Shown piece by piece: positions 11,366 through 62,374 of a stretch of DNA of 64,000 nt. The stretch comes from Trypanosoma brucei (Eukaryota): NCBI GenBank assembly GCA_000002445.1, contig AE017150.2, positions 1,088,001 through 1,152,000 of the forward strand, written 5' to 3'. The notes beneath the pieces are model-generated. The model saw only the letters and a list, made by a program, of their open reading frames with translations, was not told the origin of the DNA and ran no database searches. The translations under genes were made by a program, and so were the position numbers. The first letter of the stretch is position 1, and each line of letters begins with the position of its first letter.

Positions 11366-11468
11366 CTCAAACGTAGGTGCATAATGTCTCCCTGAATTAT
11401 GTAACTCAACCCTCTTTTTCATTTTCTTTCCTTTTACATTCACATATAAAAAAAAAATGCGTATATAT

Positions 11469-11478
<10 letters not shown>

Positions 11479-11508
<30 letters not shown>
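11479..11508. repeat. (TA)n microsatellite
   Basis: atatatatatatatatatatatatatatat seen in the sequence. Confidence 0.9.
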
Positions 11509-11512
<4 letters not shown>

Positions 11513-11560
11513 TTATTTATTATTTCTTGTGTTATAAAGGGCAGAGGAGGAGGAAAGGAG

Positions 11561-11881
11561 ATGGTTAACTACCCCAAAAAGAAGAAAATGCATTGCCCTG
11601 ATGAAAGGTGCAATGCTCACAAGAGTTTTAAGGTAGTTCAGTATAAAGCTGGTAAGGCACGTTTGTATGCCAGAGGTAAGCGCCGTTACGACCGCAAACA
11701 GTCCGGTTATGGTGGTCAGACGAAACCTATTTTCCACAAGAAGGCGAAAACGACAAAAAAAATTGTTTTGAAGCTTCAGTGCTCCAACTGCAAGTCGATT
11801 ATTCAAAATGTCTTGAAGCGCACGAAGCACTTTGAGCTGAATGACAAAAAGAAGACTGGCAACAAGGATCCTACATGGTAA
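11561..11881 (+). CDS. RPL44: 60S ribosomal protein L44 (eL42/L36a), 106 aa
   Basis: [79 protein letters not shown]... is a near-universal eL42 sequence that includes the C4 zinc ribbon. Confidence 0.95.
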
Positions 11882-12374
11882 ACGTAGGTTAAACCTTCGA
11901 TTCGCGATATCGTTGTGGGGTCCGATTATTTTCTATCTTGACTTCAGTCCTTCTTTTACCTTTCGTCTTATCTTATTCTGACCCTCTTGTTCATTTCCTT
12001 CTTTCTTTTTTTTTTTTAAAAAAGAGACTGACTCTTTCCGTATTTACTTTTACACCTGATGGTGTGGGAGTAATAATGCATGTGACAACATATGAGTAGG
12101 GCAGGCAGCGCTGTGCACTTTTTTTTTTTGGGGGGGGCACAAAACTATGGTTTCCCCATCCATTCCTTTACTTTTGTTAGGCAAGAGTGGATGCGTTATG
12201 GTTAAAGGGGGATGCACGTGTGCGTTTCTTTTATCTGTAGTAATTAAGGAGGTTCACTTTAACTTCCTTTTATTTTCTCTTCTTTTTTTTCTTTTTGACT
12301 GGAAATGAAGTCATATTGTAACATACAACAACAACAACAAAGGAAAAAAGAAATAGAGAGGAAATAGGAGGAGA

Positions 12375-12406
<32 letters not shown>
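12375..12406. repeat. (TA)n microsatellite
   Basis: tatatatatatatatatatatatatatatata seen in the sequence. Confidence 0.9.
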
Positions 12407-12409
<3 letters not shown>

Positions 12410-12462
12410 GTGTGTGTATTTATTCACCTACTTCAGTCCTAAAAGGGAGTGAGTAGGCGAAG

Positions 12463-13926: not shown

Positions 13927-14287
13927 CAATGTTGGAATTGCGAGTACGGAGACTTTCATGGTGAGAATGTTGGGTGGAGTGGCGTTGGTAAAAAGGCATG
14001 GGGAGAGGAAAGGAAAAACAAAACAAAACAAAAGCAAACAAAGAGAACCAGTAAAAAAACAACAACAACAACAAAAAAAAAAAGGAAGAAACGAAAGCAG
14101 CAAGAAGAACCTCACAAGGGAGAGGGGGGGGGGTGGAAATATAGATAGAAAAGAGGCATATGATATTGAAAACGAAAAAAAAAATAAATGAAAAGAAGTA
14201 AATAGGGGGGGGGGGGGAAATTTAGATAAGGGTGGGTCTCACACGCTGCTGTTGGTAGTTTCTGTGTGTTGCTTGTTCATAGATTTA

Positions 14288-14289
<2 letters not shown>

Positions 14290-14318
<29 letters not shown>
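14290..14318. repeat. (TA)n microsatellite
   Basis: atatatatatatatatatatatatatat seen in the sequence. Confidence 0.9.
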
Positions 14319-14322
<4 letters not shown>

Positions 14323-14732
14323 GTGTGAACAAGGGGAAATGGAAGTGCTGTTAAACTTCTTTTTTTTCCCCTTTAACCGCTCCACACGTCATCGTGCACG
14401 CAAAAAACTTTTTGGCACAGGAAAAAATGACATCAGTAAGAGTACGCTGTTCGTCATTTTTCAGTTTATGTCGATTTTACTATTTTAATCACTCAATTTT
14501 TTATCTTTTGTTTATTTGGTGTAATGTGGCTGTTGTTTTATGTTTTGTTTACCGACTAAAGTTTATTTCAACTGTGCTGCTCTCGCTTCCACATTTTCAC
14601 ATTGAAAAGAAAAAAAAAAAAGAAACATCCCTCCCAAACTCGTTTCGTTCTTTTTTCCATTTCTGTTTTTTTTTTTTTACTTGGCTATTGTTTACCATTC
14701 TTATATTAGTAGCGTGCGTGCAGGTGTGTGTG

Positions 14733-17700
14733 ATGCACGCGAGAATAAATATACGTAACGCCGTGTTTGTACCACTTGGCATTTCCATATGCGCCGCTGC
14801 CGTTGTTATCGCAGCTCGAGCATTATTACGCGAAAGGGCGAGGCCTGCGGTTCTTTTGGATTGCGAGCGGAAGGCATATGAAATACTTGAGATGCTTACG
14901 AGGGCAACAATAAAAACAGATGGGCACGACAGTAAGCAGACGGAATGCAAAGATGACGCCTCCATCGCCATTTTTTTGAATTGCAACGGGGTGGAGTCCA
15001 TACACGTGAGGACTTTAGTGTTTAACCACAATATCATGCAACTTCCGTCCGTGTTTGCAGTTCACTGCGGCTTGATGAAGAATTCGCACCCGGACCATCT
15101 TCTTGTTTGCGACATTTGGAACTGTCTCATGGCGTTGATGAACTGCAGCATCCGTGACATTTTATTGGATGATGGCGTTGCATTGTGTATCCTCGACGAT
15201 GTAAAAGCTGAGGAAGTCTTGGCACTGTGCATGCTGCTGCGAGGTAAATACTCAATCGCGCGGTATCCGCCTGCTGCTCAAGCCGATGTTGTGGTACAGG
15301 AGTTTCCTGAAGAGCTGTATTTGGGTTTAATTACTGCCTATAACAGAAAACGCTCGCTTCAATCCGGAATAACTTCTTTTTGGAAGCTAATGTGCTCCTC
15401 GTGCTCCATTCCGCAACTTGTCACCTTGGCGGCTACCGTATTGTTCTCACCAGAGGTTATTCTGAAATGTATTCTGGGGATGCATGCTTTCGTCCACTGG
15501 CGACCTATCTACGCGGCGGAGATTGGAAAGAGTCTAAACGGCGATGTGTCACCCAAGCTGTCGCCATTCCGGTTTATCATAAAGCAACTTATGGGGCTTC
15601 CAGCGACTTTTGTGTCGATGGCGGTTGCGTCAACGTTTGCCTTTGAGTCGTTGTACTGCATCCGTGGATTTGTTATCCAATCCATCCTATCGGATATTAT
15701 TACTTCTATTCACATTGATGCCTATTTGGCGCTGGCTACGGCCGACTACGATCCTTCTGATGATTGGCTTCTCTCCCGTTGTGTATCGCAGGCTCTTTGG
15801 CAGGCCTCAGGTTCGGTGATGGATGAGCTGCAGAGTCGAGTGCCTGCACTACTTGAAGTGATGCACGGGTGTCGAGTCGTCTTCAGTTTTCCAGTGGTTT
15901 CTCTAGTCATGTGGTTAGGGACTCAATGGAGTAATTTCCTGTACTTTCTTAATGAAAGCCTTTACATGGAGTCGCAGTTTACAAAGAGCCAATTAGCTTC
16001 AGTCACTAATATCGCTACTTCCACTTATGCAGGAAATGGAGAGGAAAATCAGGTGTCTCCCACCTGCTCATTTCCCGTCCAAAATTCCTTGACCTCGTCG
16101 CCCCTAACCCTTCTACAGAAACAGAAGGATGACGGAATAAAGTGTATGTTATCATCTACGGACAACAAAATGTTGTTTCAACAGACTTTCTCCCACCCCT
16201 CCCGTCACGACAAGTCGTCAGTGCAGTACGGTTTGGTGCTCTTTTCAATGGTATTCGTGGAGTCCGGTAGACCACTTGGCTACATGTGGGACCTTCTCAC
16301 ACAACACGTGATATGGCCTTTAGTACCTTCCGTGTTCAGCGGATGCGTTGTGGACGCATTGAAGCGGAAATTACAAGCAGGCGGCCACACATGCGCTGTA
16401 AGTGTGCGACGGCTTGGATGGATAAAAGACGTCATTCAAAACTCACCGCGACCAGCGACTGCGAGTCCGTCCACTTGTGTTTGGCAGTGCCGTCAGGATT
16501 ATCTTCAGGGATTTGCAGCACTTCGTCTTTCCGGGTGGGAGTTGATGGCAGCCACGGCGGCTGCCGCCTTCGCAACAGCGTCGGAGCGGAATGATCGTTA
16601 TGAGCAGTGCGGGCGTGATGTTTTGCACGGGTTGTTTCAGATGGCTGACACGTTGCCACTTTTGCTTGTTTCAGCAGTGGCTCTACGTTTCTCACCTAAC
16701 TTTTTTACGCAATCGGTGTTGGATCAAACCGAGATAGTGAATCAGTTGCGTTCAATTCAACACTGGTGTCCATTGTATCACGCATTCCTCGGCTCTTTTT
16801 ACGACGAGTGCGGTATGAGTGAAGCGCAAGTCGATGAGGCTCACCTCCGGCGGCACCTCGCTTTTAGCGGAAGTTCACTGGGGTGTTATCAAGTTTTGGA
16901 GGGTTTGCAATCAGTTCAGCGGAAAATTGATCGACCCGTACGAGGCATTGTCCCTCCTTCACTGGATGGACCATGGAGTGTGGAGTTTCGTGAAGTTTCT
17001 TTTAGATACAGCGACAGACATCCTTATGTCCTCCGGCGAGTCTCATTTGTCGTAAACAAGGGAGAGTTCCTTGGCATTGCCGGCTACAGCGGGTCTGGGA
17101 AAACAACACTTCTCCGTCTGCTCAATCGAACATATGCTCCAACGGAAGGAGACATTTTTGTGAATGGAGTACATATAAGCCAATACCCTGCTCGCATGTT
17201 GAGGCGCCGAATAGCCAACGTGTGGCAAGAAGAGAACAACTTGAGATTCATTGAGGATCTTTCCATCGGGGGAAATATTGCGTTGGGTAATCTCTGGGAT
17301 TGCAGCGATGAAAACATTTGCGCGGCACTTTCCGCTTCACGTGCGCTCAGCTTCGTGCAGAAGCGTTCATCCGGAATTCATGCACCTTTAAATGTGCGTG
17401 AGTTTAGTGGCGGTGAAGTGGAACGTCTTTGCATCGCACGTGCTTTCGTAAAAGCCGGCTCAGCTGTTGGTCTCTGCATTTTCGATGAACCTACAAGTGC
17501 AATTGATACCATAACTGAAGGAGAAATCTTCGATACGCTGCGGCTCCGTGAGGGAAACAATTTACTACGGGATTCTACCATTATTATTGTGGCGCATCGT
17601 CTTGCAACATTAAAGCATGCGGATAAAATTGTCGTTCTTAATGAAGGAATGGTTGCTGAGGTGGGAAGTTGGGAGACACTTTCCAGAACAGGGCCTCACT

Positions 17701-17753
17701 CATGCTTTTCGAGGATGCGTCAGTCGCAGCAATTGCCCCACTTTGTGAAATAA
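14733..17753 (+). CDS. ABC-ATPase family protein: a single C-terminal nucleotide-binding domain after a ~700 aa N-terminal region with scattered hydrophobic segments; 1006 aa
   Basis: Walker A GIAGYSGSGKTTLLRLL; an ABC-signature-like FSGGEVERLCIARAF; Walker B LCIFDEPTSAID; H-loop IIIVAHRLATL. The supplied ORF (14394..) reads through a polypyrimidine tract (14600-14700), so I prefer the ATG at 14733 (MHARINIR...). Confidence 0.82.
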   Translation: MHARINIRNAVFVPLGISICAAAVVIAARALLRERARPAVLLDCERKAYEILEMLTRATIKTDGHDSKQTECKDDASIAIFLNCNGVESIHVRTLVFNHNIMQLPSVFAVHCGLMKNSHPDHLLVCDIWNCLMALMNCSIRDILLDDGVALCILDDVKAEEVLALCMLLRGKYSIARYPPAAQADVVVQEFPEELYLGLITAYNRKRSLQSGITSFWKLMCSSCSIPQLVTLAATVLFSPEVILKCILGMHAFVHWRPIYAAEIGKSLNGDVSPKLSPFRFIIKQLMGLPATFVSMAVASTFAFESLYCIRGFVIQSILSDIITSIHIDAYLALATADYDPSDDWLLSRCVSQALWQASGSVMDELQSRVPALLEVMHGCRVVFSFPVVSLVMWLGTQWSNFLYFLNESLYMESQFTKSQLASVTNIATSTYAGNGEENQVSPTCSFPVQNSLTSSPLTLLQKQKDDGIKCMLSSTDNKMLFQQTFSHPSRHDKSSVQYGLVLFSMVFVESGRPLGYMWDLLTQHVIWPLVPSVFSGCVVDALKRKLQAGGHTCAVSVRRLGWIKDVIQNSPRPATASPSTCVWQCRQDYLQGFAALRLSGWELMAATAAAAFATASERNDRYEQCGRDVLHGLFQMADTLPLLLVSAVALRFSPNFFTQSVLDQTEIVNQLRSIQHWCPLYHAFLGSFYDECGMSEAQVDEAHLRRHLAFSGSSLGCYQVLEGLQSVQRKIDRPVRGIVPPSLDGPWSVEFREVSFRYSDRHPYVLRRVSFVVNKGEFLGIAGYSGSGKTTLLRLLNRTYAPTEGDIFVNGVHISQYPARMLRRRIANVWQEENNLRFIEDLSIGGNIALGNLWDCSDENICAALSASRALSFVQKRSSGIHAPLNVREFSGGEVERLCIARAFVKAGSAVGLCIFDEPTSAIDTITEGEIFDTLRLREGNNLLRDSTIIIVAHRLATLKHADKIVVLNEGMVAEVGSWETLSRTGPHSCFSRMRQSQQLPHFVK

Positions 17754-19374
17754 AAAAAAAATAAAAATAATGTCATAATGATACCTTCAGTGCATTTGCA
17801 GTACGCCGCGTCCATAAAGAAGAAATGGTGTTGATGAATTTATTATTAATTTTTTAAAAGGAAGGAAGGGTGGAAGAAAAGACAAGAAGAAGAACAAGAG
17901 CCGCTTTTGTTCTTTTTCTTTTTGTTTCGTCTGTTTGTTTCTCCATGGTACATAAAAACTGTGCAGTATTGTTTTCCACCCATTAAAAAAAAATGAGTGT
18001 TAACGCATGAAGTTCCATACAACTGTTTAATTTCATCCAGAAAGAATTCGCCCCAACGTGCCCTACTTCTCAAAATAAAACCCGTTAATTCTTTCGCTAT
18101 CATCCGTTTTGTGTTTTTTTTTCCTTTTCTCATTACTGAATCAGCACTCCTAAAAAAAAGTGCGCCATTCCCCAAAATAGCACGGTAAAGGGCGAATGTT
18201 TGTGTAATTTCGAAAAAAAAAATAAAGGAAGATGTTATAAATGCATGCAGCCCAATACTTGAGAAATGTGTATTTTCTACACCTTAACATCAATTTTTTT
18301 TTTGTAAAGGACAAACTCACTGAGTGTTTAGTGACTGCGCTTCTTCAAACTTTTCTCCCTCAAGGCGTATTATGCAGTTGCAGAGAGTCATCTGTTTTCT
18401 GCTCCTTCTCCGCTTGCTAATGATTTGTGTTTATGCGTGTTGCTTCCTTTTTTATATTGTAAGTAATAGAAGACAAAAAAGGGGATATTACATATTACAT
18501 ATTTTATTTCGTATGTTAGCATGGTTGCATAATTTATGCTGCTGTAGAGGCGTGTGTTATGGATTGTAGTATTTGGAGAAGTTGTTTGACTAAAAGTTAC
18601 AAAAGCTAACCCTGTGTGTGATGGATTGTTAATTTATATAAACTTGTTTAACTTTACATTAGAATATAAATTTATTTATTGTCATTTAAATAGTTCCCCC
18701 ATATGAGAAAACTAAATGAACACGTATATGCACGTACATGTATGTGTATATTTGCATATTTGTTGTTTATGTATATTATATTTGAGTAATGTTAGTAAGG
18801 TGAGAAAACGGCTGTGTAATAAATCATTTTTATTTGGTATGCTTTGAGTGCGCGCGCGTGGGTTCTTTATTTCTATTATTAGAAAAGGAAACTGCAATAA
18901 TTGTTTCATTATTAAAAGTTCTTCATGACTCTTGTTTTTAAGTTTAGCATTTTGCTATTACTCAAATCATGTGAATTAAGGGAGGACTCATATCAGTATC
19001 ATATGATGATATTTGAAACAATTTAGAGACGCCTGATATTACTCAATACTCTAACTCTTTTTTTTCCTTTCATATCCATTGCATTTATATTGTGATATGA
19101 TAAGTTGATTTGTGTTAGCATTCAAATGCAGCATTGTTATTATTAATATTAACTTCCTTAAGGGAAATTAATTCGAAAGGAATGTTATTGTAAAAGGATT
19201 CAAATTGCAAGTAGTTATTCAGATAATGTTAATAATTTATACACAATTTTATATTTATTGTAGTTGTAGTAGTGTGCGTATTTCAACAAAGGTACCACTA
19301 ATTTTGCAGTTACTAAAAAGTTATAATGACACAATTCTATTTCTTGATAATGTGAGTCCCTGAATTTGTTGTTC

Positions 19375-19445
19375 TCTTTATATTTTTCACTTTGCTTTTC
19401 TTTTCTTTCATTTCATATATGTTTTTCTTTTTGTTATATAGACAA
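19375..19445 (+). promoter_or_regulatory. Polypyrimidine tract plus AG upstream of NT copy 1; the same element sits upstream of every NT copy
   Basis: ttctctttatatttttcactttgcttttcttttctttcatttcatatatgtttttctttttgttatatagacaaac occurs ~40 nt before each NT ATG. Confidence 0.4.
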
Positions 19446-19480
19446 ACTTATTATATCACTATTTCAAGTAATTCAAAAAG

Positions 19481-20869
19481 ATGGCAATGCTTGGTTTCGA
19501 GTCGACAGCTGAATTTTTCGTCTATCTCACCTTTATCTTTTTTGGGATGTCGGTGATGAATGTGACGAATGCCATTTACTCCAATTATGATTATTTCTCG
19601 GAATATTACAAGTTTGCGCAGCGTAATGCAGATGCGATATCCTCCAATCCATCATTCTGGAAGCACATGTTCACGTATTATAATGTTGTTGTGTTTACGA
19701 TGCAAGTGCTTTTGGAGGCTTTTATGCTCACACCATTGGGCCGACGCATTCCTATTAGTTGGCGTCTCATCTTTGGACTCACAATTCCTATGGTGGAGAT
19801 TATTGTGATTTTAGTGATCCCTGAAGTTGGAGGAAGCGAAGATGGTGCAATCGCAACTATGATGATAGTTGCTTTTGTTGGTGGTATTTCCAAAACACTT
19901 TGTGACTCCAGCAATGCTGCACTTGCGGGACCGTTTCCGACTAAATTCTATGGTGCCATCGTGTGGGGTCTTGCTGTCTCTGGCCTCATGACTTCATTTA
20001 TGTCTATTGTTATCAAAGCATCGATGGACAGCAGTTTTGAAAGCAAGAGAGTTCAGTCCCAAATATACTTTGGATTAGTCATGCTTCTTCAGGTGGTTGC
20101 ATGCGTGCTTCTTGTCCTTCTGAGGAAAAACCCATATGCCATTAAATATGCTGCAGAATTTAGGTATGCTGCGAGGAAGGATGGAGCAACAGGTGAAGAA
20201 GATGACACCGATTTTAAAGGAAGGGGCCCAGCAGATGAGAATAGATATCCCGATGAAAAGGATGACAAGAATGTGCTGAATGCTGATATTGATCCAGATA
20301 AGATGAAGGATACGGATCAGGTTGAAGGCACTACCAACGCTCAGCAGATGCTTGATGCGAGTGTTATGGTTGTGGTGAAACGCATTTGGCCCATGTTACT
20401 TTCATGCTTCTTTGTGTTCTTTGCGACACTTCTTGTATTCCCTGGTGTATTCTTTGCCGTTAAAGGCTCGATGGATCTTAATAACTTTTGGTACTTTCCC
20501 GTTGCCATTGCCATGTTCAACTTGGGTGATTTCTTGTCTCGTCTGGTGCTGCAGTTCAAGCAATTGCATGTGTCTCCGCGTATGGTTTTGATTGGTTCAT
20601 TTGCACGTGCACTTTTGATAATTCCTCTTTCTCTTTGTGTGTCCGGTGCAATTCCTGGTGTGGGGGTTCCTTTTACCGTTTCTCTCCTTTGGGGTCTCAC
20701 AAATGGTTACTTTGGTGGCCTTTCAATGATTTATGGACCACGTACGGGATCCCTCACCACAGCGGGTCAACGCTCTCTTGCTGCCATTTGCATTAATGTT
20801 GCCCTTCTTATGGGTCTTTTTGCTGGTGCTATGTTTGCCTTGGCTGTTAAGGAGGGACTTCCTAAATAA
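19481..20869 (+). CDS. Equilibrative nucleoside transporter (ENT family), TbNT2-family purine nucleoside transporter, copy 1; 462 aa
   Basis: Multi-pass membrane protein (MAMLGFESTAEFFVYLTFIFFGMSVMNVTNAIYS...) with a large charged central loop (KDG..EDD..PDEK..NADIDPDKMKD) and about 11 hydrophobic segments. It matches my recollection of the TbNT2-7 ENT proteins. Which TbNT number each copy carries cannot be decided from the sequence alone. Confidence 0.92.
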   Translation: MAMLGFESTAEFFVYLTFIFFGMSVMNVTNAIYSNYDYFSEYYKFAQRNADAISSNPSFWKHMFTYYNVVVFTMQVLLEAFMLTPLGRRIPISWRLIFGLTIPMVEIIVILVIPEVGGSEDGAIATMMIVAFVGGISKTLCDSSNAALAGPFPTKFYGAIVWGLAVSGLMTSFMSIVIKASMDSSFESKRVQSQIYFGLVMLLQVVACVLLVLLRKNPYAIKYAAEFRYAARKDGATGEEDDTDFKGRGPADENRYPDEKDDKNVLNADIDPDKMKDTDQVEGTTNAQQMLDASVMVVVKRIWPMLLSCFFVFFATLLVFPGVFFAVKGSMDLNNFWYFPVAIAMFNLGDFLSRLVLQFKQLHVSPRMVLIGSFARALLIIPLSLCVSGAIPGVGVPFTVSLLWGLTNGYFGGLSMIYGPRTGSLTTAGQRSLAAICINVALLMGLFAGAMFALAVKEGLPK

Positions 20870-20956
20870 ATTTCTCAAAACTTGTAAATACTTTAAGTAA
20901 TGACATATCATTAGTTTTTAATTTATTAATGAAAAAGAAGATAAATGATACTCGAT

Positions 20957-20978
20957 GCTGGTATCAGCTAGGAGTGGT
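20957..20978 (+). promoter_or_regulatory. Conserved 3'-flank hairpin motif GCUGGUAUCAGCUAGGAGUGGU, 88 nt after the NT copy 1 stop
   Basis: The motif is conserved downstream of all five NT genes while the flanking 3' sequence has diverged. GCUG/CAGC can form a 4-bp stem with a GUAU loop. Confidence 0.35.
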
Positions 20979-23589
20979 GTGAATGATGCAATAAAAAGAA
21001 GGGTAAGGATAGTAAAGAGATGAGCGAGAAATTGAAATATGAGGAATAAGAATAAATTCTAGTTAGAAAAGAATTATATGATATTTGAGAGTAATGAAGC
21101 ATATGCGTGCACACGTTATGTTGTTTTAAATGTGATAAATGGTATAAAAGAAGAAAGTACGTCTTTCCCTTTTCGTTTCTCTAAACTTGTGACTGAGTAT
21201 AAATAAACATATCTGCAATCATTTTAAAAGAGAGAGAAGTGGACGGAGGACCGCAGGTGCGCGTTCATATAATTGTCTTTTTCTTTTTTCCCGTTTTCAT
21301 TATGTTGTGATTGACTCCCTACAAATATCATAATTTCCTCCAATGTTTTGTGTAGCTTTCGTAATTTTTAACAGGAGAAATGATGGTGCAGATCCATTCT
21401 TTGGTGTATACTCAATTTTTGTCTTCTGTTGGATCAATTTCTTTTTGTTGAAACAAAAAAGCAAAAAGGAGGAAATAAAATATACGACTGTAGAAACATA
21501 AACGAACTATCAAAAAAAAAACACATATACATATTTATAATATGTGTTCTTTCTGCACAAAAAAAAAAAGAAAAAAATTGTATTAGTTACAATAATAAAA
21601 AATAGTGAAGCCAGCAGGAGGTGATAATTACAATTTGAACTCATCCCCTCTTGCCTATTTCACTATTCCCTTTGTTTCTTGAGAAAATAACTAAAACAGT
21701 AAAACAAGAGAGAGGATAGTAATAAATTGAATGAAATCAACAATACATTATTTTAAGAGGAAATTTGATTTTACTTTTTCTTTACTTTTCACTGTTTCTG
21801 TTTTTTGATTACTTTTACTTCCTTTCATTTCTTACTTTTTATTCCCATGACTGTGCTATGGTGTTACGGATATGTGTGTGTAAGTGAGGAATGTTGTGTG
21901 GATTTGCTTCTATTATTGTTTACTTGCCTTTGGTTGTATATCACACGCCTGCTTATGTTTTCCCATATGTGTACGCCTGCAGCAAACAGTGTGGGAATTT
22001 ACTCCGTGACTTTTTCTCATAAATGTCGGGAGGCAAATAATTAAATTAATTTTTTGTTTAATGTATCTGTATATGTTTGTCTGTTTATGTGTATGTGTTT
22101 GTGTGTACGTATTTGACATGTTCAGCAATATGTTTAGATTATCCAATAATAACTTCTCTTCCTTTCTATCTCTTATACAGTTATGTTGTTTACTTGTCAC
22201 TGTTTTACTTTCAGGAAAGTGTATAAATTAAGCTGAAGCAACGTTATGTTTATTTGTGTATTAGGCGCATGAATTCATTTTCTAGCAGTTAATGTACGTA
22301 TGCATACACGCATGTGTTTAACTTTATAATGTCTTATACTAAAAATGTATTCAAATATTGCCATGTGAATACCGTGTGAGGCTTATTGTATTTTTGTGTC
22401 GTGAAATAGTCAAGTAGTTGCTGTGTAACTTTTGTGTTTTTTCTTAAATAGATGACGTGTGTTTCCTTAGTTTAAAATATTTAATAAATGATTTGACAGC
22501 TGCTTGCATGTGAGAGTTTCATTCCTCTTCTTTGCTTAAAAATGTGCAGAGACTGGAATCCTTCATATAAATGATGTGAAATGCATAACTTATAAATTGC
22601 ATTTCCACTTTCACATATTGTAATATTATTGAGTATCAAAAGGGAAATGATGAATTACGTAATAGGAAGTTATTCACAACATGTTAATAGAGCAATTTAA
22701 CTTCGCAGCTATCACAGAACAGGCTTTTTATTGTAATGCTTATTTGTGGAATAGCTCATGCTTTATGAATTCTTGAGGATGGAGCGTTGTAATATTTTTA
22801 AAAGTAAACATAAGTAAACAAATAAATAAACAGTTTATCATTTTTGTATTTGCCTTCATAATCACTATAAGCTAAGCTATTAGTCTATTAACAATAATTA
22901 ATATGGCTACTAGTAAGGCAAAAGACGAGAAATAAGAAATTAATTTATAGGAATGATTTGATAGTTTGACGAATGTGTAATTATCATGTCTCTGATACTA
23001 GTGACGGATTATGATAGAGAGAATATGATTTGTGAGGTAGTTTTGATTCTCTGAAGTGATACAGCGGCGCATGGGAACTCGTCGTAAGAAAAAAAGAAAT
23101 AAATAATGTGCGGTATGTAATTTTTAAACCTCACATTGATGAGGTTGTGAGGCATAAAATAACTCTTGCCATTTTCCCAACGTGGCCAACAGTCGAAGAA
23201 CTGGTGCAACACTGCAGTAATGATACAGTGATGTTAAATTGAAAGCGAAAAATAAATATGAATGGCGTAAAAAGGGGGAAGGAAGTAGTGATGGTGGCGT
23301 AATCGATTTGGATTGTTTTTCGTGACAAATTCTCTACATTCAATGATTCTAGAGGAAACAAGTACGTACCATAGCAGTGGTTACTGTGTTTCCATAAGGA
23401 GTAAGTTATATTTACTGGAAAATGTGGTATTAAGAAATGTTATATGTGAGTAGTAATATACCTCAACACAGAGATGTACGCTCATGTAATCACTACACAA
23501 AAACCTTCCGAATGTTTTGAACGCACTGAGCGGATTGATGCGTCTCTCCAACCTTGAGTTGAAATGCACAACCCTTGAGTGTTGAGTTG

Positions 23590-26475: not shown

Positions 26476-26586
26476 CTTATTTTTGCATCTGCACTGGCTG
26501 TTTAAGCGGACCCTTTCCAATTGTTAGGCACAAAACGGTACATATATATATATTTCAAGAAAGCAACAGTGTGTAATTTAGAAACC

Positions 26587-29940: not shown

Positions 29941-31335
29941 ATGGCAATGCTTGGTTTCGAGTCGACAGCTGAATTTTTTGTCTATCTCACCTTCATCTTT
30001 TTTGGGATGTCGGTGATGAATGTGACGAATGCCATTTACTCCAATTATTATTTTTTTTGGGAATACTACAAGTTTGCGCAGGGTAATGAACATGCTGTTT
30101 CTGCAAATCCATCATTCTGGAAGCACATGTTCACGTATTATAATGTTGTCGTGTTTACCATGCAAGTGCTTTTGGAGGCCTTTATGCTCACACCATTGGG
30201 CCGACGCATTCCTATTAGTTGGCGTCTCTTTTTTGGACTCTCACTTCCCATGGTTGAAATCATTGTAATTTTGGTTATTCCTGCTGTTGGAGGAACAAGT
30301 GAGGGCGGTGCGATGGCAACTATGATGATAGTTGCTTTTGTTTGTGGTATTTCCATGACACTCTGTGACTCCAGCAATGCTGCACTTGCGGGACCGTTTC
30401 CAACTAAATTCTATGGTGCCACCGTGTGGGGTCTTGCTGTCTCTGGCCTCATGACTTCATTTTTGGCTATTGTTATCCAAGCATCAATGAAGGATAACTT
30501 TGAAAGCAGACGAACTCAGTCCCAAATATACTTTGGATTAGTCATGTTTCTTCAGGTGGTTGCATGCGTCCTTCTTGTCCTTCTGAGGAAAAACCCATAT
30601 GCCATTAAATATGCTGCAGAATTTAGGTATGCTGCGAGGAAGGATGGAAAGACAGATGATGGCGAAGATGAAAACGATGCAAAGGGAACAGGACCAGCAG
30701 ACGAAGATGGGTATCCTGATGAAAAAGAGAATAAGAATGTATTGAATGCTGATATTGATCCAGATAAGATGAAGGATACGGATCAGGTTGAAGGCACTAC
30801 CAACGCTCAGCAAATGCTTGATGCGAGTGTTATGGTTGTGGTGAAACGCATTTGGCCCATGTTACTATCTTGCTTCTTTGTATTCTTTGCGACACTTCTT
30901 GTATTCCCTGATGTATTTGTTGCTGTTAAAGAAGGGTTCCCAACTCATGGGGGATGGTACTTTACAATTGTTGTTGCCATGTTCAACTTGGGTGATTTCT
31001 TGTCTCGTCTTGTGCTGCAGTTCAAGCGGTTGCATGTGTCTCCGCGTATGGTCATGATTGGTTCATTTGCACGTGCACTGCTGATAATTCCTCTTTCGCT
31101 TTGTGCTGCCGGAACCATTCCTGGTGTGTGGCTTCCCTACACCGTTTCTCTCCTTTGGGGTCTCACAAATGGTTACTTTGGTGGCCTTTCAATGATTTAT
31201 GGACCACGTACGGGATCCCTCACCACAGCGGGTCAACGCTCTCTTGCTGCCATTTGCATTAATGTGGCTCTTTTACTCGGTCTTTTTGCTGGTGCTATGT
31301 TTGCATTGGCTGTTAAAGAGGGACTTCCTGAATAA
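29941..31335 (+). CDS. ENT-family nucleoside transporter, TbNT2-family, copy 2; 464 aa
   Basis: About 85-90% identical to copy 1. It is a mosaic of segments shared with the other copies. Confidence 0.92.
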   Translation: MAMLGFESTAEFFVYLTFIFFGMSVMNVTNAIYSNYYFFWEYYKFAQGNEHAVSANPSFWKHMFTYYNVVVFTMQVLLEAFMLTPLGRRIPISWRLFFGLSLPMVEIIVILVIPAVGGTSEGGAMATMMIVAFVCGISMTLCDSSNAALAGPFPTKFYGATVWGLAVSGLMTSFLAIVIQASMKDNFESRRTQSQIYFGLVMFLQVVACVLLVLLRKNPYAIKYAAEFRYAARKDGKTDDGEDENDAKGTGPADEDGYPDEKENKNVLNADIDPDKMKDTDQVEGTTNAQQMLDASVMVVVKRIWPMLLSCFFVFFATLLVFPDVFVAVKEGFPTHGGWYFTIVVAMFNLGDFLSRLVLQFKRLHVSPRMVMIGSFARALLIIPLSLCAAGTIPGVWLPYTVSLLWGLTNGYFGGLSMIYGPRTGSLTTAGQRSLAAICINVALLLGLFAGAMFALAVKEGLPE

Positions 31336-40352: not shown

Positions 40353-41741
40353 ATGGCAATGCTTGGTTTCGAGTCGACAGCTGAATTTTTTGCTTATCTT
40401 ACTTTTATGTTTTTTGGGATGTCGGTGATGAATGTGACGAATGCCATTTACTCCAATTATAATTTTTTCTCCCAGTACTACAAGTTTGCGCAGGGTGATG
40501 CGGATGCTGTATCAAAAAATACATCATTCTGGGAGCACATGTTCACGTATTATAATGTTGTCGTGTTTACCATGCAAGTGCTTTTGGAGACTTTTATGCT
40601 CACTCCACTGGGTAGACAGATTCCTGTTACATGGCGTTATGTCTTTGGACTCACGATTCCCATGGTTGAAATCATTGTAATTTTGGTTATTCCTGCTGTT
40701 GGAGGAACAAGTGAGGGCGGTGCGATGGCAACTATGATGATAGTTGCGTTCGTCGACGGTATTTCGAAAACACTTTGTGACTCCAGCAATGCTGTCACTA
40801 CAGGACCGTTTCCGACTAAATTCTATTCTGCGATGGTTATGGGTCTTGCTGTCTCCGGCATTATGACTTCATTTTTGTCCATTGTTATCAAAGCATCAAT
40901 GAAGGATAACTTTGAAAGCAGACGAACTCAGTCCCAAATATACTTTGGATTAGTCATGCTCTCTCAAGTAGTTGCATGCGTCCTTCTTTTTCTTCTGAGG
41001 AAAAACCCATATGCCATTAAATATGCTGCAGAATTTAGGTATGCCGCGAGAAAAAAAGGAACAGTGTGTGACTTTGATGTAAAGGGAACAGGGCCGGTAA
41101 GCGGAAATAGATATGCTGATGAAAAAGAGAACAAGAATGTATTGAATGCTGATATTGATCCAGATGATATGAGGGATACGGATCAGGTTGAAGGCACTAC
41201 CAACGCTCAGCAAATGCTTGATGCGAGTATTATGGTTGTGGTGAAACGCATTTGGCCTGTGTTACTATCTTGCTTCTTTGTATTCTTTGCGACACTTCTT
41301 GTATTCCCTGGTGTATTCTTGGCAGTTAGGGATTCACTTACAATAAAAGACTTTTGGTATTTTAACATCGTCGTTGCCATGTTCAACTTGGGTGATTTCT
41401 CGTCACGTTTTGCTTTGCAGTTCAAGCGGTTGCATGTGTCTCCACGCATGGTTATGATTGGTTCATTTGCACGTGCACTTTTGATAATTCCTCTTGCTCT
41501 TTGCGTTCCTGGGACCATTCCTGGTGTATGGCTACCATGTATTCTTTGTCTCCTTTGGGGGTTCACAAATGGTTACTTTGGTGGCCTTTCAATGATTTAT
41601 GGACCGCGTAACGGATCGCTCACCACAGCGGGTCAACGCTCTCTTGCCGCCGTATGTATCAATGTATCACTTCTTATGGGTCTTTTTGCTGGTGCTATGT
41701 TTGCGTTGGCTGTTAAGGAGGCTCTTCCTAAAACAGAGTAG
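40353..41741 (+). CDS. ENT-family nucleoside transporter, TbNT2-family, copy 3 (the most divergent copy); 462 aa
   Basis: Same architecture as the others. Unique substitutions include ...AVTTGPFPTKFYSAMVMGLAVSGIM... and a distinct central loop (KKGTVCDFDVKGTGPVSGNRYADEK). Confidence 0.92.
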   Translation: MAMLGFESTAEFFAYLTFMFFGMSVMNVTNAIYSNYNFFSQYYKFAQGDADAVSKNTSFWEHMFTYYNVVVFTMQVLLETFMLTPLGRQIPVTWRYVFGLTIPMVEIIVILVIPAVGGTSEGGAMATMMIVAFVDGISKTLCDSSNAVTTGPFPTKFYSAMVMGLAVSGIMTSFLSIVIKASMKDNFESRRTQSQIYFGLVMLSQVVACVLLFLLRKNPYAIKYAAEFRYAARKKGTVCDFDVKGTGPVSGNRYADEKENKNVLNADIDPDDMRDTDQVEGTTNAQQMLDASIMVVVKRIWPVLLSCFFVFFATLLVFPGVFLAVRDSLTIKDFWYFNIVVAMFNLGDFSSRFALQFKRLHVSPRMVMIGSFARALLIIPLALCVPGTIPGVWLPCILCLLWGFTNGYFGGLSMIYGPRNGSLTTAGQRSLAAVCINVSLLMGLFAGAMFALAVKEALPKTE

Positions 41742-50451: not shown

Positions 50452-51843
50452 ATGGCAATGCTTGGTTTCGAGTCGACAGCTGAATTTTTTGTCTATCTCA
50501 CCTTCATCTTTTTTGGGATGTCGGTGATGAATGTGACGAATGCCATTTACTCAGTCCCTGATTTTTTTTCTGATTATTATAAATTTGTTAAAAATGAGGA
50601 AAAAGCGAAACCTGTCAATGCATCGTTCTGGAAGCACATGTTCACGTATTATAATGTTGTTGTGTTTACGATGCAAGTGGTTTTGGAGGCTTTTATGCTC
50701 ACACCATTGGGCCGACGGATTCCTATTAGTTGGCGTCTCATCTTTGGACTCACAATTCCTATGGGTGAGATCATTGCAATTTTAGTGATTCCTGCTGTTG
50801 GAGGAAGTGAAAATTGTGCAATTGCAACTGTTATGATGGTTGCTTTTGTTGGTGGTATTTCCAAAACACTTTGTGACTCCAGCAATGCTGCACTTGCGGG
50901 ACCTTTTCCGACTAAATTCTATGGTGCCATCGTGTGGGGCCTTTCCGTGTCCGGTATGATTACTTCATTTATGGCTATTGTCATTAAAGCATCGATGAAG
51001 GATAGTTTTGAAAGTAAGAGAGTTCAGTCCCAAATATACTTTGGATTAGTCATGCTTCTTCAGGTGGTTGCATGCGTGCTTCTTGTCCTTCTGAGGAAAA
51101 ACCCATATGCCATTAAATATGCTGCAGAATTTAGGTATGCTGCGAGGAAGGATGGAAAGACAGATGATGGCGAAGATGAAAACGATGCAAAGGGAACAGG
51201 GCCAGCAGACGAAGATGGGTATCCTGATGAAAAAGAGAATAAGAATGTATTGAATGCTGATATTGATCCAGATAAGATGAAGGATACGGATCAGGTTGAA
51301 GGCACTACCAACGTTCAGCAAATGCTTGATGCGAGTGTTATGGTTGTGGTGAAACGTATTTGGCCCATGTTACTTTCATGCTTTTTTGTGTTCTTTGCGA
51401 CACTTCTTGTATTTCCTGGTGTATTCTTTGCTGTTAAAGATGGATTAAATGTTAAAAATGGATGGTACTTTACTATTGTCATTGCCATGTTCAACTTTGG
51501 TGATTTCCTTACGAGGCTTCTTCTTCAGTTCAAGCAGCTGCACCTGTCTCCACGCATGGTTATGATTGGTTCATTTGCACGTGCACTTTTGATAATTCCG
51601 CTTTCATTATGTGCAGCTGGTACCATTCCTGGTATATGGCTTCCCTACACCGTTTCTCTCCTTTGGGGTCTTACGAACGGTTACTTTGGTGGTTTAACAA
51701 TGATTTATGGACCACGTACGGGATCCCTCACCACAGCGGGTCAACGCTCTCTTGCTGCCATTTCTACAAATGTATCACTACTTTCGGGTCTCTTTGTTGG
51801 TGCTATGTTTGCATTGGCTGTTAAGGAGGGACTTCCTGAATAA
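50452..51843 (+). CDS. ENT-family nucleoside transporter, TbNT2-family, copy 4; 463 aa
   Basis: Distinct TM1-TM2 loop (SVPDFFSDYYKFVKNEEKAKPVNASFWKHM). Its central loop is identical to those of copies 2 and 5. Confidence 0.92.
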   Translation: MAMLGFESTAEFFVYLTFIFFGMSVMNVTNAIYSVPDFFSDYYKFVKNEEKAKPVNASFWKHMFTYYNVVVFTMQVVLEAFMLTPLGRRIPISWRLIFGLTIPMGEIIAILVIPAVGGSENCAIATVMMVAFVGGISKTLCDSSNAALAGPFPTKFYGAIVWGLSVSGMITSFMAIVIKASMKDSFESKRVQSQIYFGLVMLLQVVACVLLVLLRKNPYAIKYAAEFRYAARKDGKTDDGEDENDAKGTGPADEDGYPDEKENKNVLNADIDPDKMKDTDQVEGTTNVQQMLDASVMVVVKRIWPMLLSCFFVFFATLLVFPGVFFAVKDGLNVKNGWYFTIVIAMFNFGDFLTRLLLQFKQLHLSPRMVMIGSFARALLIIPLSLCAAGTIPGIWLPYTVSLLWGLTNGYFGGLTMIYGPRTGSLTTAGQRSLAAISTNVSLLSGLFVGAMFALAVKEGLPE

Positions 51844-60973: not shown

Positions 60974-62374
60974 ATGGCAATGCTTGGTTTCGAGTCGACA
61001 GCTGAATTTTTTGTCTATCTCACCTTCATCTTTTTTGGGATGTCGGTGATGAATGTGACGAATGCTATTTACTCTATTCCTGACTATTTTTCAGTGTATT
61101 ATCAATTTGTTAAAAATGATGAAAAAGCGAAACCTGTCAATGCATCGTTCTGGGAGCACATGTTCACGTATTATAATGTTGTTGTGTTTACGATGCAAGT
61201 GGTTTTGGAGGCTTTTATGCTAACACCATTGGGCCGACGCATTCCTATTAGTTGGCGTCTCATCTTTGGACTCACAATTCCTATGGGTGAGATCATTGCA
61301 ATTTTAGTGATCCCTGAAGTTGGAGGAAGTGAAGCTGGTGCGATGGCAACTGTTATGATAGTTGCTTTTGTTGGTGGTATTTCCAAAACACTTTGTGACT
61401 CCAGCAATGCTGCACTTGCGGGACCGTTTCCGACTAAATTCTATGGTGCCATCGTGTGGGGTCTTGCAGTCTCTGGCCTAATCACTTCATTTATGTCTGT
61501 TGTCATCAAAGCAGCGATGGAATACAGCTTCAAAAGCAGACGAGTTCAGTCCCAAATATACTTTGGATTAGTCATGCTTCTTCAGGTGGTTGCATGCGTG
61601 CTTCTTGTCCTTCTGAGGAAAAACCCATATGCCATTAAATATGCTGCAGAATTTAGGTATGCTGCGAGGAAGGATGGAAAGACAGATGATGGCGAAGATG
61701 AAAACGATGCAAAGGGAACAGGGCCAGCAGACGAAGATGGGTATCCTGATGAAAAAGAGAATAAGAATGTATTGAATGCTGATATTGATCCAGATAAGAT
61801 GAAGGATACGGATCAGGTTGAAGGCACTACCAACGCTCAGCAAATGCTTGATGCGAGTGTTATGGTTGTGGTGAAACGTATTTGGCCCATGTTACTTTCA
61901 TGCTTCTTTGTGTTCTTTGCGACACTTCTCATCTTCCCTGGTGTATTCTTTGCTGTTAAAGATAAAACAACGGTAAAAAACTTTTGGTATTATACAATTA
62001 TTGTTGCCATGTTCAACTTGGGTGATTTCTTGTCTCGTCTGGTGCTGCAGTTCAAGCGGTTGCATGTGTCTCCGCGCATGGTTATGATTGGTTCATTTGC
62101 ACGTGCGTTGCTGATAATTCCTCTTGCCCTTTGCGTTCCTGGTACCATTCCTGGTGTATGGCTTCCCTACACCGTTTCTCTCCTTTGGGGTCTCACAAAT
62201 GGTTACTTTGGTGGCCTTTCAATGATTTATGGACCACGTACGGGATCCCTCACCACAGCGGGTCAACGCTCTCTTGCTGCTATTTGCATTAATGTGGCTC
62301 TTTTACTCGGTCTCTTTGCTGGTGCTATGTTTGCATTGGCTGTTAAGGAGGGACTTCCGAAGGAAAAAAAGTAG
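60974..62374 (+). CDS. ENT-family nucleoside transporter, TbNT2-family, copy 5; 466 aa
   Basis: Its TM1-TM2 loop is of the copy-4 type (SIPDYFSVYYQFVKNDEKAKPVNASFWEHM). Its C-terminus is of the copy-2 type, with an extra KEKK tail. Confidence 0.92.
   Translation: MAMLGFESTAEFFVYLTFIFFGMSVMNVTNAIYSIPDYFSVYYQFVKNDEKAKPVNASFWEHMFTYYNVVVFTMQVVLEAFMLTPLGRRIPISWRLIFGLTIPMGEIIAILVIPEVGGSEAGAMATVMIVAFVGGISKTLCDSSNAALAGPFPTKFYGAIVWGLAVSGLITSFMSVVIKAAMEYSFKSRRVQSQIYFGLVMLLQVVACVLLVLLRKNPYAIKYAAEFRYAARKDGKTDDGEDENDAKGTGPADEDGYPDEKENKNVLNADIDPDKMKDTDQVEGTTNAQQMLDASVMVVVKRIWPMLLSCFFVFFATLLIFPGVFFAVKDKTTVKNFWYYTIIVAMFNLGDFLSRLVLQFKRLHVSPRMVMIGSFARALLIIPLALCVPGTIPGVWLPYTVSLLWGLTNGYFGGLSMIYGPRTGSLTTAGQRSLAAICINVALLLGLFAGAMFALAVKEGLPKEKK

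What the first reader, a model, noticed from the sequence alone, without database searches (positions are those of the whole stretch)
19583..19670. Hypervariable first extracellular loop of the transporters, with gain and loss of an N-glycosylation sequon
The stretch between the first two hydrophobic segments is by far the most variable part of the paralogues. Copy 1 reads SNYDYFSEYYKFAQRNADAISSNPSFWKHM. Copy 2 reads SNYYFFWEYYKFAQGNEHAVSANPSFWKHM. Copy 3 reads SNYNFFSQYYKFAQGDADAVSKNTSFWEHM. Copy 4 reads SVPDFFSDYYKFVKNEEKAKPVNASFWKHM. Copy 5 reads SIPDYFSVYYQFVKNDEKAKPVNASFWEHM. Equivalent positions are about 30081, 40493, 50590 and 61112. Copies 3, 4 and 5 carry an N-x-S/T sequon here (NTS or NAS), whereas copies 1 and 2 have NPS, which is not glycosylatable. 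In ENTs this loop faces outward and contributes to the permeation path. Concentrated non-synonymous change at this site suggests diversification of substrate specificity or of a host-exposed surface epitope.
Basis: partly seen in the sequence, partly recalled or inferred. Interest (0 to 1): 0.5.

Follow-up and report, generated by a model that had tools for sequence, protein, structure and literature searches.

The report
Old divergent loop in TbNT transporter array
The variable stretch is the first outward-facing loop of five tandem, already characterised Trypanosoma brucei nucleoside transporter genes (TbNT2-NT6), and it stands out because gene conversion has made the rest of the genes alike, not because the loop evolves fast under positive selection.

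Summary
The window is T. brucei TREU927 chromosome 2. The five ORFs match the annotated TbNT2-NT6 ENT proteins exactly, and NT7 lies beyond the window end.

"By far the most variable" is overstated. The central cytosolic loop and the TM7-TM8 loop are comparable hot spots.

The loop is extracellular by 11-TM AlphaFold models and a hENT1 fold match. It is also structured, fixed in length across kinetoplastids, and ends in invariant F59-W60.

Non-synonymous change is not in excess. pN/pS is 0.28-0.54, with bootstrap upper bounds mostly below 1. Synonymous divergence is raised as well, and is near saturation between NT2/3/4-type and NT5/6-type loops. The flanks, including 1.3 kb upstream, differ by only 0-7 %. 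Gene conversion is significant in 8 of 10 pairs.

So the loop is an old island of divergence inside a concertedly evolving array, under purifying selection.

Functional divergence is not excluded. Eight of the 11 fixed NT2-4 versus NT5-7 differences lie at residues 46-57, and Pro57 was replaced at least twice, each time creating the only extracellular sequon. That sequon sits about 7 residues from TM2, so glycosylation is doubtful and untested.

The parts
19481..20869 (+). ENT paralogue copy 1 (TbNT2; exact match to XP_951746.1)
   Evidence: ORF; Pfam PF01733 at 109 bits; exact-sequence look-up
29941..31335 (+). ENT paralogue copy 2 (XP_951748.1; NT3 by its order in the array)
40353..41741 (+). 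ENT paralogue copy 3 (XP_951750.1; NT4 by order)
50452..51843 (+). ENT paralogue copy 4 (XP_951752.1; NT5 by order)
60974..62374 (+). ENT paralogue copy 5 (XP_951754.1; NT6 by order)
19580..19669 (+). First extracellular loop of copy 1 (S34-M63), type A: SNYDYFSEYYKFAQRNADAISSNPSFWKHM
   Evidence: AlphaFold places it between TM1 (9-34) and TM2 (63-82), with short helices at 36-40, 42-47 and 57-61 and pLDDT 84-92
30040..30129 (+). Loop 1 of copy 2, type A
40452..40541 (+). Loop 1 of copy 3, type A, with N-T-S
50551..50640 (+). Loop 1 of copy 4, type B, with N-A-S
   Evidence: the same predicted loop secondary structure as copy 1
61073..61162 (+). Loop 1 of copy 5, type B, with N-A-S
19646..19654 (+). 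Codons 56-58 of copy 1, AAT CCA TCA = N-P-S (no sequon). Equivalent codons: 30106-30114 (NPS), 40518-40526 (ACA, NTS), 50617-50625 (GCA, NAS), 61139-61147 (GCA, NAS)
18281..19579 (+). Homogenised tract of copy 1: about 1.2-1.3 kb of upstream non-coding DNA plus codons 1-33. It differs by 0-6 % among all five copies and ends exactly at the loop
   Evidence: 100-nt windows; codons 1-33: 0-7 %
20177..20275 (+). Central cytosolic loop hot spot of copy 1 (aa 233-265). Three haplotypes exist, and copies 2, 4 and 5 are 0-1 % divergent here (copies 4 and 5 identical)
20456..20518 (+). TM7-TM8 extracellular loop hot spot of copy 1 (aa 326-346). Every copy is different, and the model confidence is low here

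Best explanation
The stretch encodes the first extracellular loop (TM1-TM2) of the tandem P1-type nucleoside transporters TbNT2-NT6 of Trypanosoma brucei. The array evolves in concert. Gene conversion among copies repeatedly homogenises most of each unit, including about 1.3 kb of upstream non-coding DNA, TM1 and TM2. Three short segments have escaped homogenisation and keep old divergence: loop 1, the central cytosolic loop, and the TM7-TM8 loop.

Loop 1 exists in two deep lineages. Type A (NT2/3/4) reads ..AQ[RG]xx[DH]A[IV]SxN[PT]S. Type B (NT5/6) reads ..VKNxEKAKPVNAS. NT7 is an A/B recombinant. Silent-site divergence between the two types is near saturation and about as deep as that to the separate NT10 gene.

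The loop is a structured, fixed-length, aromatic-rich element. Its conserved residues (F39, Y42, Y43, F59, W60) are kept, and the substitutions fall on polar positions. Net selection is purifying (omega about 0.3-0.5), about twice as relaxed as in the rest of the protein.

The sequon difference comes from replacement of an ancestral Pro57: CCA to ACA in NT4, and CCA to GCA in the type B ancestor followed by GAA in NT7.

Shown here: gene identity, the conversion mosaic, the raised dS, omega below 1, and the conserved length and predicted structure. Inferred: that the island persists because conversion across it is selected against, or is blocked by the sequence mismatch itself.
For: Identity: exact matches to TREU927 chromosome 2 proteins; the NT2-NT7 array alternating with oxidoreductase genes is described in PMC2771046 and seen.

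Mosaic: Sawyer-type runs are significant in 8 of 10 pairs (P<=0.0145, most <=0.0005), and the nearest neighbour changes from segment to segment (sliding distances).

Island: codons 34-58 differ by 39-47 % at the nucleotide level between types and by 13-21 % within types. Codons 1-33 differ by 0-7 % and the 1.3 kb upstream by 0-6 %.

Silent sites: between types, 43-62 % of codons with identical amino acids carry synonymous differences in the loop, against 5-22 % in the flanks (Fisher P=0.001-0.04). Loop pS between types is 0.66-0.90, against 0.9-1.1 to NT10. Backbone pS is 0.16-0.33, against 0.68 to NT10.

Omega: pairwise dN/dS is 0.16-0.32 where it can be estimated. pN/pS is 0.28-0.54, with the bootstrap fraction at or above 1 at 0-7 %.

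Not intrinsically fast: among 28 other kinetoplastid ENTs, loop 1 ranks 109th of 438 windows for diversity. Cluster diversity in the loop is 89 % of the family-wide level, against 6-9 % in TM1 and TM2.

Structure: length is invariant and F59/W60 are invariant across 36 sequences. pLDDT is 84-93 and the secondary structure is the same in the NT2 and NT5 models.

Recombination inside the loop (NT7) and the codon-57 history.
Against: Omega averaged over 25-30 codons can hide a few positively selected sites. With five or six recombining paralogues and saturated dS between types, no site or branch test was possible. Positions A46 and G48 are almost invariant in other kinetoplastid ENTs (diversity 0.07) but vary in the cluster. 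Eight of the 11 fixed NT2-4 versus NT5-7 differences lie at residues 46-57. Both observations fit an adaptive episode as well as they fit old neutral divergence. The data cannot say whether selection or a heterology barrier maintains the island. A type B loop imported from an unsampled donor gene is not excluded.
Confidence: 0.65

Rival explanations
1. One reading: the loop is under diversifying (positive) selection that tunes substrate specificity among the paralogues, for example nucleoside-only NT2 versus nucleoside plus hypoxanthine NT5-7. It would act through an effect on the extracellular vestibule or through a glycan at N56.
For: Eight of the 11 fixed NT2-4 versus NT5-7 differences in the whole protein lie at residues 46-57, with one more at L77V in TM2. 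NT5-7 have lost the family-wide A46-Q47-G48..D51 motif. Hypoxanthine data are tabulated only for NT5 among the cluster members, and P1 transporters are said to differ in hypoxanthine binding (PMC9960827 table; PMC10208901). From memory of Sanchez et al. 2002, which is not held, NT5 and to a lesser degree NT6 and NT7 take up hypoxanthine. Pro57 was hit independently at least twice, each time creating N-x-S. Loop omega is about twice that of the backbone.
Against: pN/pS is 0.28-0.54 in every pair, and synonymous divergence is raised in parallel. The two loop types have the same predicted backbone structure. The soluble loops of hENT1 are reported as dispensable for transport (PMC4583308). The ligand contacts described for PfENT1 are residues of the central binding cavity, not loop-1 residues (PMC10050424). 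The functional correlation rests on only four active transporters. NT3 and NT4, which supply much of the within-type variation, are reported inactive (PMC10208901).
Confidence: 0.2
2. The loop is simply a weakly constrained linker drifting neutrally. Its variability carries no functional meaning, and the sequon differences are incidental.
For: The variable positions are polar. Omega is higher than in the backbone. hENT1 loop deletions retain transport (PMC4583308). Two of the contributing genes are reported inactive (PMC10208901).
Against: Omega is clearly below 1. Length is invariant from Trypanosoma to Leishmania, and F59/W60 are invariant. Model confidence is high and short helices are predicted. 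Drift alone cannot explain 40 % nucleotide divergence next to 0-7 % flanks; that also needs conversion with a sharp boundary.
Confidence: 0.12
3. One reading: the loop is a host-exposed epitope diversified by immune pressure, with glycan shielding gained in some copies.
For: The loop is predicted to be extracellular. N56 is the only extracellular sequon.
Against: Omega is below 1. The NT2-, NT3- and NT7-type loops are identical in T. b. gambiense, and the NT2-type loop is identical in T. equiperdum, although these taxa are very close. The loop is only about 28 residues and lies at the membrane surface. Bloodstream forms are covered by the VSG coat (general knowledge). The variation is between co-resident paralogues, not between alleles.
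Confidence: 0.03

Closest known systems
TbNT2-TbNT7 P1-type purine nucleoside transporter array, T. brucei chromosome 2 (Sanchez et al. 2002; described in PMC2771046, PMC9960827, PMC10208901)
   Same: It is this locus. The five proteins are 100 % identical to the TREU927 entries. The tandem array alternates with 2OG-Fe(II)/iron-ascorbate oxidoreductase genes (PMC2771046).
   Different: Nothing differs in the genes. The dS/dN and gene-conversion analysis of loop 1 was not found in the papers I could read. The original 2002 paper was not held.
Human ENT1 (SLC29A1), first extracellular loop with N48 glycan (PDB 6OB6; PMC5006311)
   Same: Same fold (TM-score 0.88-0.90). Same position of the loop between TM1 and TM2. 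A single extracellular N-glycosylation sequon in that loop.
   Different: Sequence identity is only about 18 %. The hENT1 loop is longer, and N48 lies about 14 residues after TM1. In TbNT4-7, N56 lies about 7 residues before TM2. TbNT2 and TbNT3 have no usable sequon at all. The F59-W60 motif is invariant across the 36 kinetoplastid ENTs aligned here, and the weak pairwise alignment to hENT1 shows no FW at that position.
Divergence islands in concertedly evolving tandem paralogues (selection or heterology opposing gene conversion; general population-genetic concept, from own knowledge)
   Same: Near-identical flanks, sharply bounded segments with raised dS and dN, and discordant segment genealogies.
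   Different: Whether selection maintains this particular island is not shown.

Membership tests
Equilibrative nucleoside transporter family (SLC29 / Pfam PF01733) | Significant match to the family profile | tested here: met
   PF01733 at 99.7-111.4 bits against a cut-off of 29.8 for all five copies
Equilibrative nucleoside transporter family (SLC29 / Pfam PF01733) | 11 transmembrane helices, large cytosolic TM6-TM7 loop, fold like solved ENT structures | tested here: met
   AlphaFold models have 11 TM helices and pTM 0.85. The best PDB matches are hENT1 6OB6/6OB7/8TZI (TM-score 0.88-0.90), followed by PfENT1
Equilibrative nucleoside transporter family (SLC29 / Pfam PF01733) | TM1-TM2 loop extracellular | tested here: inconclusive
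   This is predicted from fold homology to hENT1, whose loop is glycosylated at N48 (PMC5006311), and from R88-R89 in the next loop.
TbNT2-7 array of T. brucei chromosome 2 | Sequence identity to the annotated genes and tandem arrangement with oxidoreductase genes | tested here: met
   Exact look-up. ORF layout and Pfam hits of the intervening ORFs. Described in PMC2771046
   dN/dS 0.16-0.32 and pN/pS 0.28-0.54; bootstrap fraction at or above 1 is 0-7 %
   Among 28 other kinetoplastid ENTs the loop ranks 109th of 438 windows. Length is constant across the aligned kinetoplastid ENTs, with one exception in the detailed 27-sequence alignment, P0020, which has a 4-residue insertion
   Only 5-6 recombining paralogues are available and dS between types is saturated. 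No codon-model software was available
N-glycosylated loop | N-x-S/T with x not Pro, in a lumenal segment | tested here: met
   Met in copies 3-5 and NT7, not in copies 1-2
N-glycosylated loop | Acceptor Asn far enough from the membrane (about 12-14 residues; Nilsson and von Heijne rule, from own knowledge) and actually occupied | tested here: inconclusive
   N56 is 22 residues after TM1 but only about 7 before TM2, and it caps helix 57-61. There were no NT entries in the held supplements of the T. brucei glycoproteomics paper. Occupancy needs an experiment
Gene-conversion mosaic with a divergence island | Significant shared tracts, discordant segment genealogies, raised dS inside the island | tested here: met

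The most novel reading that the evidence does not exclude
Residues 46-57 of loop 1, together with L77V at the top of TM2, form a functional switch that separates nucleoside-only NT2-type carriers from the NT5-7 type that also accepts hypoxanthine. The switch could act through charge (AQGxxD to VK[NK]xEK) or through a glycan at N56. Selection against gene conversion across this switch would then be what preserves the island in an otherwise homogenised array.
Probability: 0.15. Interest if true: 0.45.

Novelty: already known. Interest (0 to 1): 0.22.

Why it matters
The P1 transporters carry purines and nucleoside-analogue drugs into African trypanosomes. The reason the parasite keeps six near-identical copies is an acknowledged open point (PMC2686105). 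Most of each gene is erased by gene conversion, while three short segments keep old, paralogue-specific sequence. That tells experimenters where to look for functional differences: loop 1 residues 46-57, the central loop and the TM7-8 loop. It also warns that naive dN/dS or phylogenies on this family will mislead unless recombination is modelled. As a discovery it is modest. The genes and their family are known, and the evidence here argues against the positive-selection reading.

Tried and rejected
1. DNA of TREU927 NT7 (P0002) and of NT9 (P0007) was not on record. I used the T. b. gambiense NT7-type partial copy (L002) and the T. equiperdum NT10 gene (L003) instead.

2. Sanchez et al. 2002 and the Valdes et al. 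2009 and 2012 LdNT1.1 gate papers are not held. The idea that invariant W60 is a published extracellular-gate residue could therefore not be checked and is not claimed.

3. I considered that W60 might correspond to the ligand-contacting W53 of PfENT1. I rejected this because the (weak) alignment puts PfENT1 W53 opposite T29 in TM1 (PMC10050424).

4. I looked for experimental glycosylation of NT proteins in the T. brucei glycoproteomics paper and its held supplements and found no entries. This absence is uninformative.

5. Model coordinates are not exposed to scripts. The height of N56 above the membrane could therefore not be measured and was judged from secondary structure only.

6. Jukes-Cantor dS between loop types is undefined because of saturation. 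I used uncorrected pN/pS with a bootstrap instead; this overestimates omega and so is conservative against my conclusion.

7. I checked for other features on either strand at 19500-19750 and found only short chance ORFs.

8. I considered import of the type B loop from another ENT paralogue. No sampled ENT has a similar 46-57 segment, so the idea is unsupported but not excluded.
Full report
WHAT IS THERE. The window carries five + strand ORFs of 462-466 aa, spaced about 10.4 kb apart: 19481-20869, 29941-31335, 40353-41741, 50452-51843 and 60974-62374. All five match Pfam PF01733 (nucleoside transporter) at 100-111 bits. They alternate with 2OG-Fe(II) oxygenase ORFs. An exact-sequence look-up shows that all five proteins are identical to annotated Trypanosoma brucei brucei TREU927 chromosome 2 proteins XP_951746, XP_951748, XP_951750, XP_951752 and XP_951754. 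Copy 1 shares a 90 % cluster with the original TbNT2 entry AAF04490. The literature describes this array: NT2-NT7 lie next to the subtelomeric VSG cluster of chromosome 2 and alternate with iron-ascorbate oxidoreductase genes (PMC2771046). By their order in the array, copies 1-5 are NT2-NT6. This naming is my inference for copies 2-5. A sixth chromosome 2 paralogue, P0002 (taken as NT7), lies beyond the window end.

CHECK OF THE OBSERVATION. Codons 56-58 read AAT CCA TCA (NPS) in copies 1 and 2, AAT ACA TCA (NTS) in copy 3 and AAT GCA TCG (NAS) in copies 4 and 5. The T. b. gambiense NT7-type copy has AAT GAA TCG (NES), and TREU927 NT7 (P0002) also reads NES at the protein level. Variable columns cluster more than chance would give: 18 of 30 in the loop against 138 of 467 overall (hypergeometric P=3e-4; P=0.04 after correcting for scanning all windows).

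"By far the most variable" does not hold. The 30-aa windows score 0.407 (loop 1), 0.39 (residues 330-359) and 0.337 (central loop). The single most variable 10-aa bin is 331-340. The central loop has 19 of 30 variable columns and the TM7-8 region 17 of 30.

TOPOLOGY AND STRUCTURE. AlphaFold models of NT2 and NT5 were built from a 36-sequence alignment (mean pLDDT 84.5 and 85.2, pTM 0.85). Both give 11 TM helices, with TM1 at 9-34 and TM2 at 63-82/83. The best structural matches in the PDB are human ENT1 entries (TM-score 0.88-0.90), followed by PfENT1. In hENT1 the first extracellular loop carries the only N-glycan, at N48 (PMC5006311), which fixes that loop on the lumenal/extracellular side. 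The following TbNT loop carries R88-R89, consistent with a cytosolic position. So the loop is predicted to face outward. This is inferred by homology and has not been measured for TbNT.

The loop is not a floppy linker. Both models predict short helices at 36-40, 42-47 and 57-61, with pLDDT 84-93. Its length is constant across the aligned kinetoplastid ENTs; the one exception seen in the detailed 27-sequence alignment is P0020, with a 4-residue insertion. F59 and W60 are invariant. It contains 7-10 aromatic residues, and segment 36-47 has an amphipathic moment of 0.33-0.56. The conserved positions are mainly aromatic (F39, Y42, Y43, F45, F59, W60), while the variable ones are polar.

THE KEY TEST: dN AND dS. 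By the Nei-Gojobori method, pooled pN/pS is 0.37 in loop 1 (0.44 for its core) against 0.23 for the rest of the gene. Pairwise dN/dS is 0.16-0.32 wherever dS can be estimated. A codon bootstrap gives pN/pS of 0.28-0.54 for all ten pairs, with only 0-7 % of replicates reaching 1. Uncorrected pS underestimates saturated dS, so these ratios overestimate omega.

What is really unusual is the synonymous divergence. Between copies {1,2,3} and {4,5}, 43-62 % of loop codons that encode the same amino acid differ silently, against 5-22 % in the flanking 66 codons (Fisher P=0.001-0.04). JC-corrected dS is above 1.3 or undefined.

WHY THE LOOP STANDS OUT. Divergence along the repeat unit is very uneven. 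The 1.2-1.3 kb of non-coding DNA upstream of every ATG differs by only 0-6 % among all five copies, and CDS nt 1-97 by 3 %. Then nt 98-197, which is the loop, jumps to a mean of 25 % (maximum 36 %), and the next window falls back to 9 %. By segment, codons 1-33 differ by 0-7 %. Codons 34-58 differ by 39-47 % between the two loop types and by 13-21 % within types. Codons 196-232 differ by 0-8 %.

Nearest neighbours change from segment to segment. Copies 1 and 5 are identical over codons 136-165. In the Sawyer-type test the longest shared runs are codons 103-130 for copies 2 and 3, codons 213-250 for copies 2 and 4 and for copies 2 and 5, codons 192-278 for copies 4 and 5, and codons 401-440 for copies 1 and 2. 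That permutation test is significant for 8 of 10 pairs (P<=0.0145, most <=0.0005). The array therefore evolves by frequent gene conversion, and loop 1 is one of three islands that escaped it.

Calibration against other genes supports this. Loop pS between types A and B (0.66-0.90) is nearly as high as between any cluster member and NT10, a chromosome 3 ENT or a T. vivax ENT (0.8-1.2). Backbone pS is 0.16-0.33 within the cluster against about 0.68-0.78 to those genes.

A family-wide control shows that the loop is not intrinsically fast. Among 28 other kinetoplastid ENTs, loop 1 ranks 109th of 438 windows for diversity (0.508 against 0.472 overall). Within the cluster, the loop retains 89 % of that family-level diversity, the TM7-8 loop 85 %, TM1 only 6 % and TM2 only 9 %.

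The loops are also stable between subspecies. The NT2-, NT3- and NT7-type loops are identical in T. b. gambiense, and the NT2-type loop is identical in T. equiperdum. Meanwhile other segments have been reshuffled: the T. b. gambiense NT2 carries the NT3/5/6-type central loop. These taxa are very close, so this only shows that the loop is not hypermutable.

ANATOMY OF THE TWO LOOP TYPES AND THE SEQUON. Outgroups give the ancestral pattern S-[IV]-P-x-F-F-x-E-Y-Y-K-[FY]-A-Q-G-x-x-D-[AV]-x-P-E-D-P-x-F-W. Type A (NT2/3/4) keeps AQG..D but has the derived states N35-Y36 and S54. Type B (NT5/6) keeps [IV]P and P54 but has replaced the almost invariant A46, Q47, G48 and D51 with V, K, N and K. NT7 is a recombinant: its codons 34-39 are NT4-like and its codons 42-58 are type B.

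Only 11 positions in the whole protein show fixed differences between {NT2,3,4} and {NT5,6,7}. Eight of them are at residues 46-57, and one more is L77V in TM2. A46 and G48 have diversity 0.07 in the other ENTs but 0.60 and 0.87 in the cluster.

Pro57 is ancestral: it is P in most outgroups and CCC in the T. vivax gene. It was changed by CCA to ACA in NT4, and by CCA to GCA in type B followed by GAA in NT7. The sequon therefore arose at least twice by gain, not by gain and loss. N56 is the only sequon in a predicted extracellular segment of any of the six proteins. The invariant N27-V-T lies inside TM1, and the other sequons are in TM11 or a cytosolic loop. NT2 and NT3 therefore have no usable site at all.

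Whether N56 is ever glycosylated is doubtful. It sits about 7 residues before TM2, at the N-cap of helix 57-61. From my own knowledge, the classical distance rule for oligosaccharyltransferase asks for about 12-14 residues; I did not test this here. The T. brucei OST paper states that TbSTT3A prefers acidic contexts and that TbSTT3B modifies the remaining accessible sites (PMC5724017). By inference, NT7 (EPENES) would be a TbSTT3A-type site and NT5/6 (KAKPVNAS) would not. No NT peptide was found in the held supplements of that paper.

INTERPRETATION. The best-supported reading is an old, paralogue-specific sequence island in a structured extracellular element. It is under net purifying selection about twice as relaxed as the backbone. 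It looks conspicuous because gene conversion has erased divergence around it. I cannot tell whether the island persists because conversion across it is selected against (functional divergence) or because about 40 % mismatch itself blocks conversion.

The functional-divergence rival keeps some weight. Fixed differences concentrate at residues 46-57, NT5-7 have lost the conserved AQGxxD motif, and there is a reported difference in hypoxanthine handling (the NT5 entry in the table of PMC9960827; "ability to bind ... H varies among P1s" in PMC10208901). That correlation rests on very few active transporters. hENT1's soluble loops are reported as dispensable for transport (PMC4583308). NT3 and NT4, which contribute much of the within-type variation, are reported inactive (PMC10208901) and carry substitutions at otherwise conserved positions. 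The epitope hypothesis has no support.

NOVELTY AND VERDICT. The genes, the array and their transport properties are known. The loop difference is a feature of published sequences. I did not find the dS/gene-conversion analysis in the papers I could read, but it applies a well-known phenomenon.

Noticed in passing
window 20456-20518 (copy 1 aa 326-346) and the equivalent positions in copies 2-5: The TM7-TM8 extracellular loop is the less constrained hot spot. Every copy differs (27-43 % at the nucleotide level). AlphaFold pLDDT is below 50 at residues 330-334 in the NT2 model. pN/pS is 0.60, and the copy 1 versus copy 2 dN/dS is 1.6. NT7 and a T. b. gambiense copy have a 2-aa deletion. It is a better candidate for a truly hypervariable loop than loop 1.
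   Followed up: partly
window, about 1.3 kb upstream of each ATG (e.g. 18281-19480) and about 950 nt after each stop (e.g. 20870-21830): The upstream non-coding DNA is 0-6 % divergent among all five copies. This includes copy 1, which has no oxygenase gene before it. The first ~950 nt of 3' flank is 30-40 % divergent, and similarity returns after about +2350. This pattern would fit copy-specific 3'UTR regulation. I did not examine that.
   Followed up: partly
window 29941-31335 (copy 2) and 40353-41741 (copy 3): Copy 2 has G134C, K138M and G322D. Copy 3 has G134D, A147V, L148T, A149T and W162M. Several of these hit positions that are at least 90 % conserved in kinetoplastid ENTs. This agrees with the statement in the literature that NT3 and NT4 are inactive (PMC10208901).
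   Followed up: partly
window 19559-19567 (N27-V28-T29 of copy 1) and equivalents: An invariant N-V-T sequon lies inside TM1, so it cannot be glycosylated. In a weak alignment, T29 lies opposite the ligand-contacting Trp of PfENT1 (W53).
   Followed up: no
L002 10001-11376 (T. b. gambiense DAL972 chromosome 2): The middle ENT copy of the DAL972 locus translated to only 296 aa in my hands, and the tool reported that it does not translate to the annotated 458-aa product. The cause could be a frameshift, a pseudogene or an assembly problem. The annotated protein (P0005) is a mosaic of the NT3 loop 1, the NT4 central loop and the NT7 TM7-8 loop. The DAL972 stretch retrieved (about 21 kb) holds three ENT copies.
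   Followed up: no
window 26521-27546, 36937-37962, 47081-48058, 57605-58582: Four 2OG-Fe(II) oxygenase ORFs (DIOX_N plus 2OG-FeII_Oxy) alternate with the transporter genes. In the mechanical ORF list they fall into two length classes (341 and 325 aa), probably because of different upstream alternative start codons. They are known as uncharacterised iron-ascorbate oxidoreductases that are co-regulated with the NT genes (PMC2771046).
   Followed up: no
window 161-17753: Upstream of the array lie ORFs with these domains: PI-PLC X domain (161-1429), coatomer beta' type (4934-7501), RanBP2-type zinc fingers (8003-9217), two ORFs with no Pfam hit (9552-11165 and 12463-13926), and an ABC transporter ATPase (14394-17753).
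   Followed up: no
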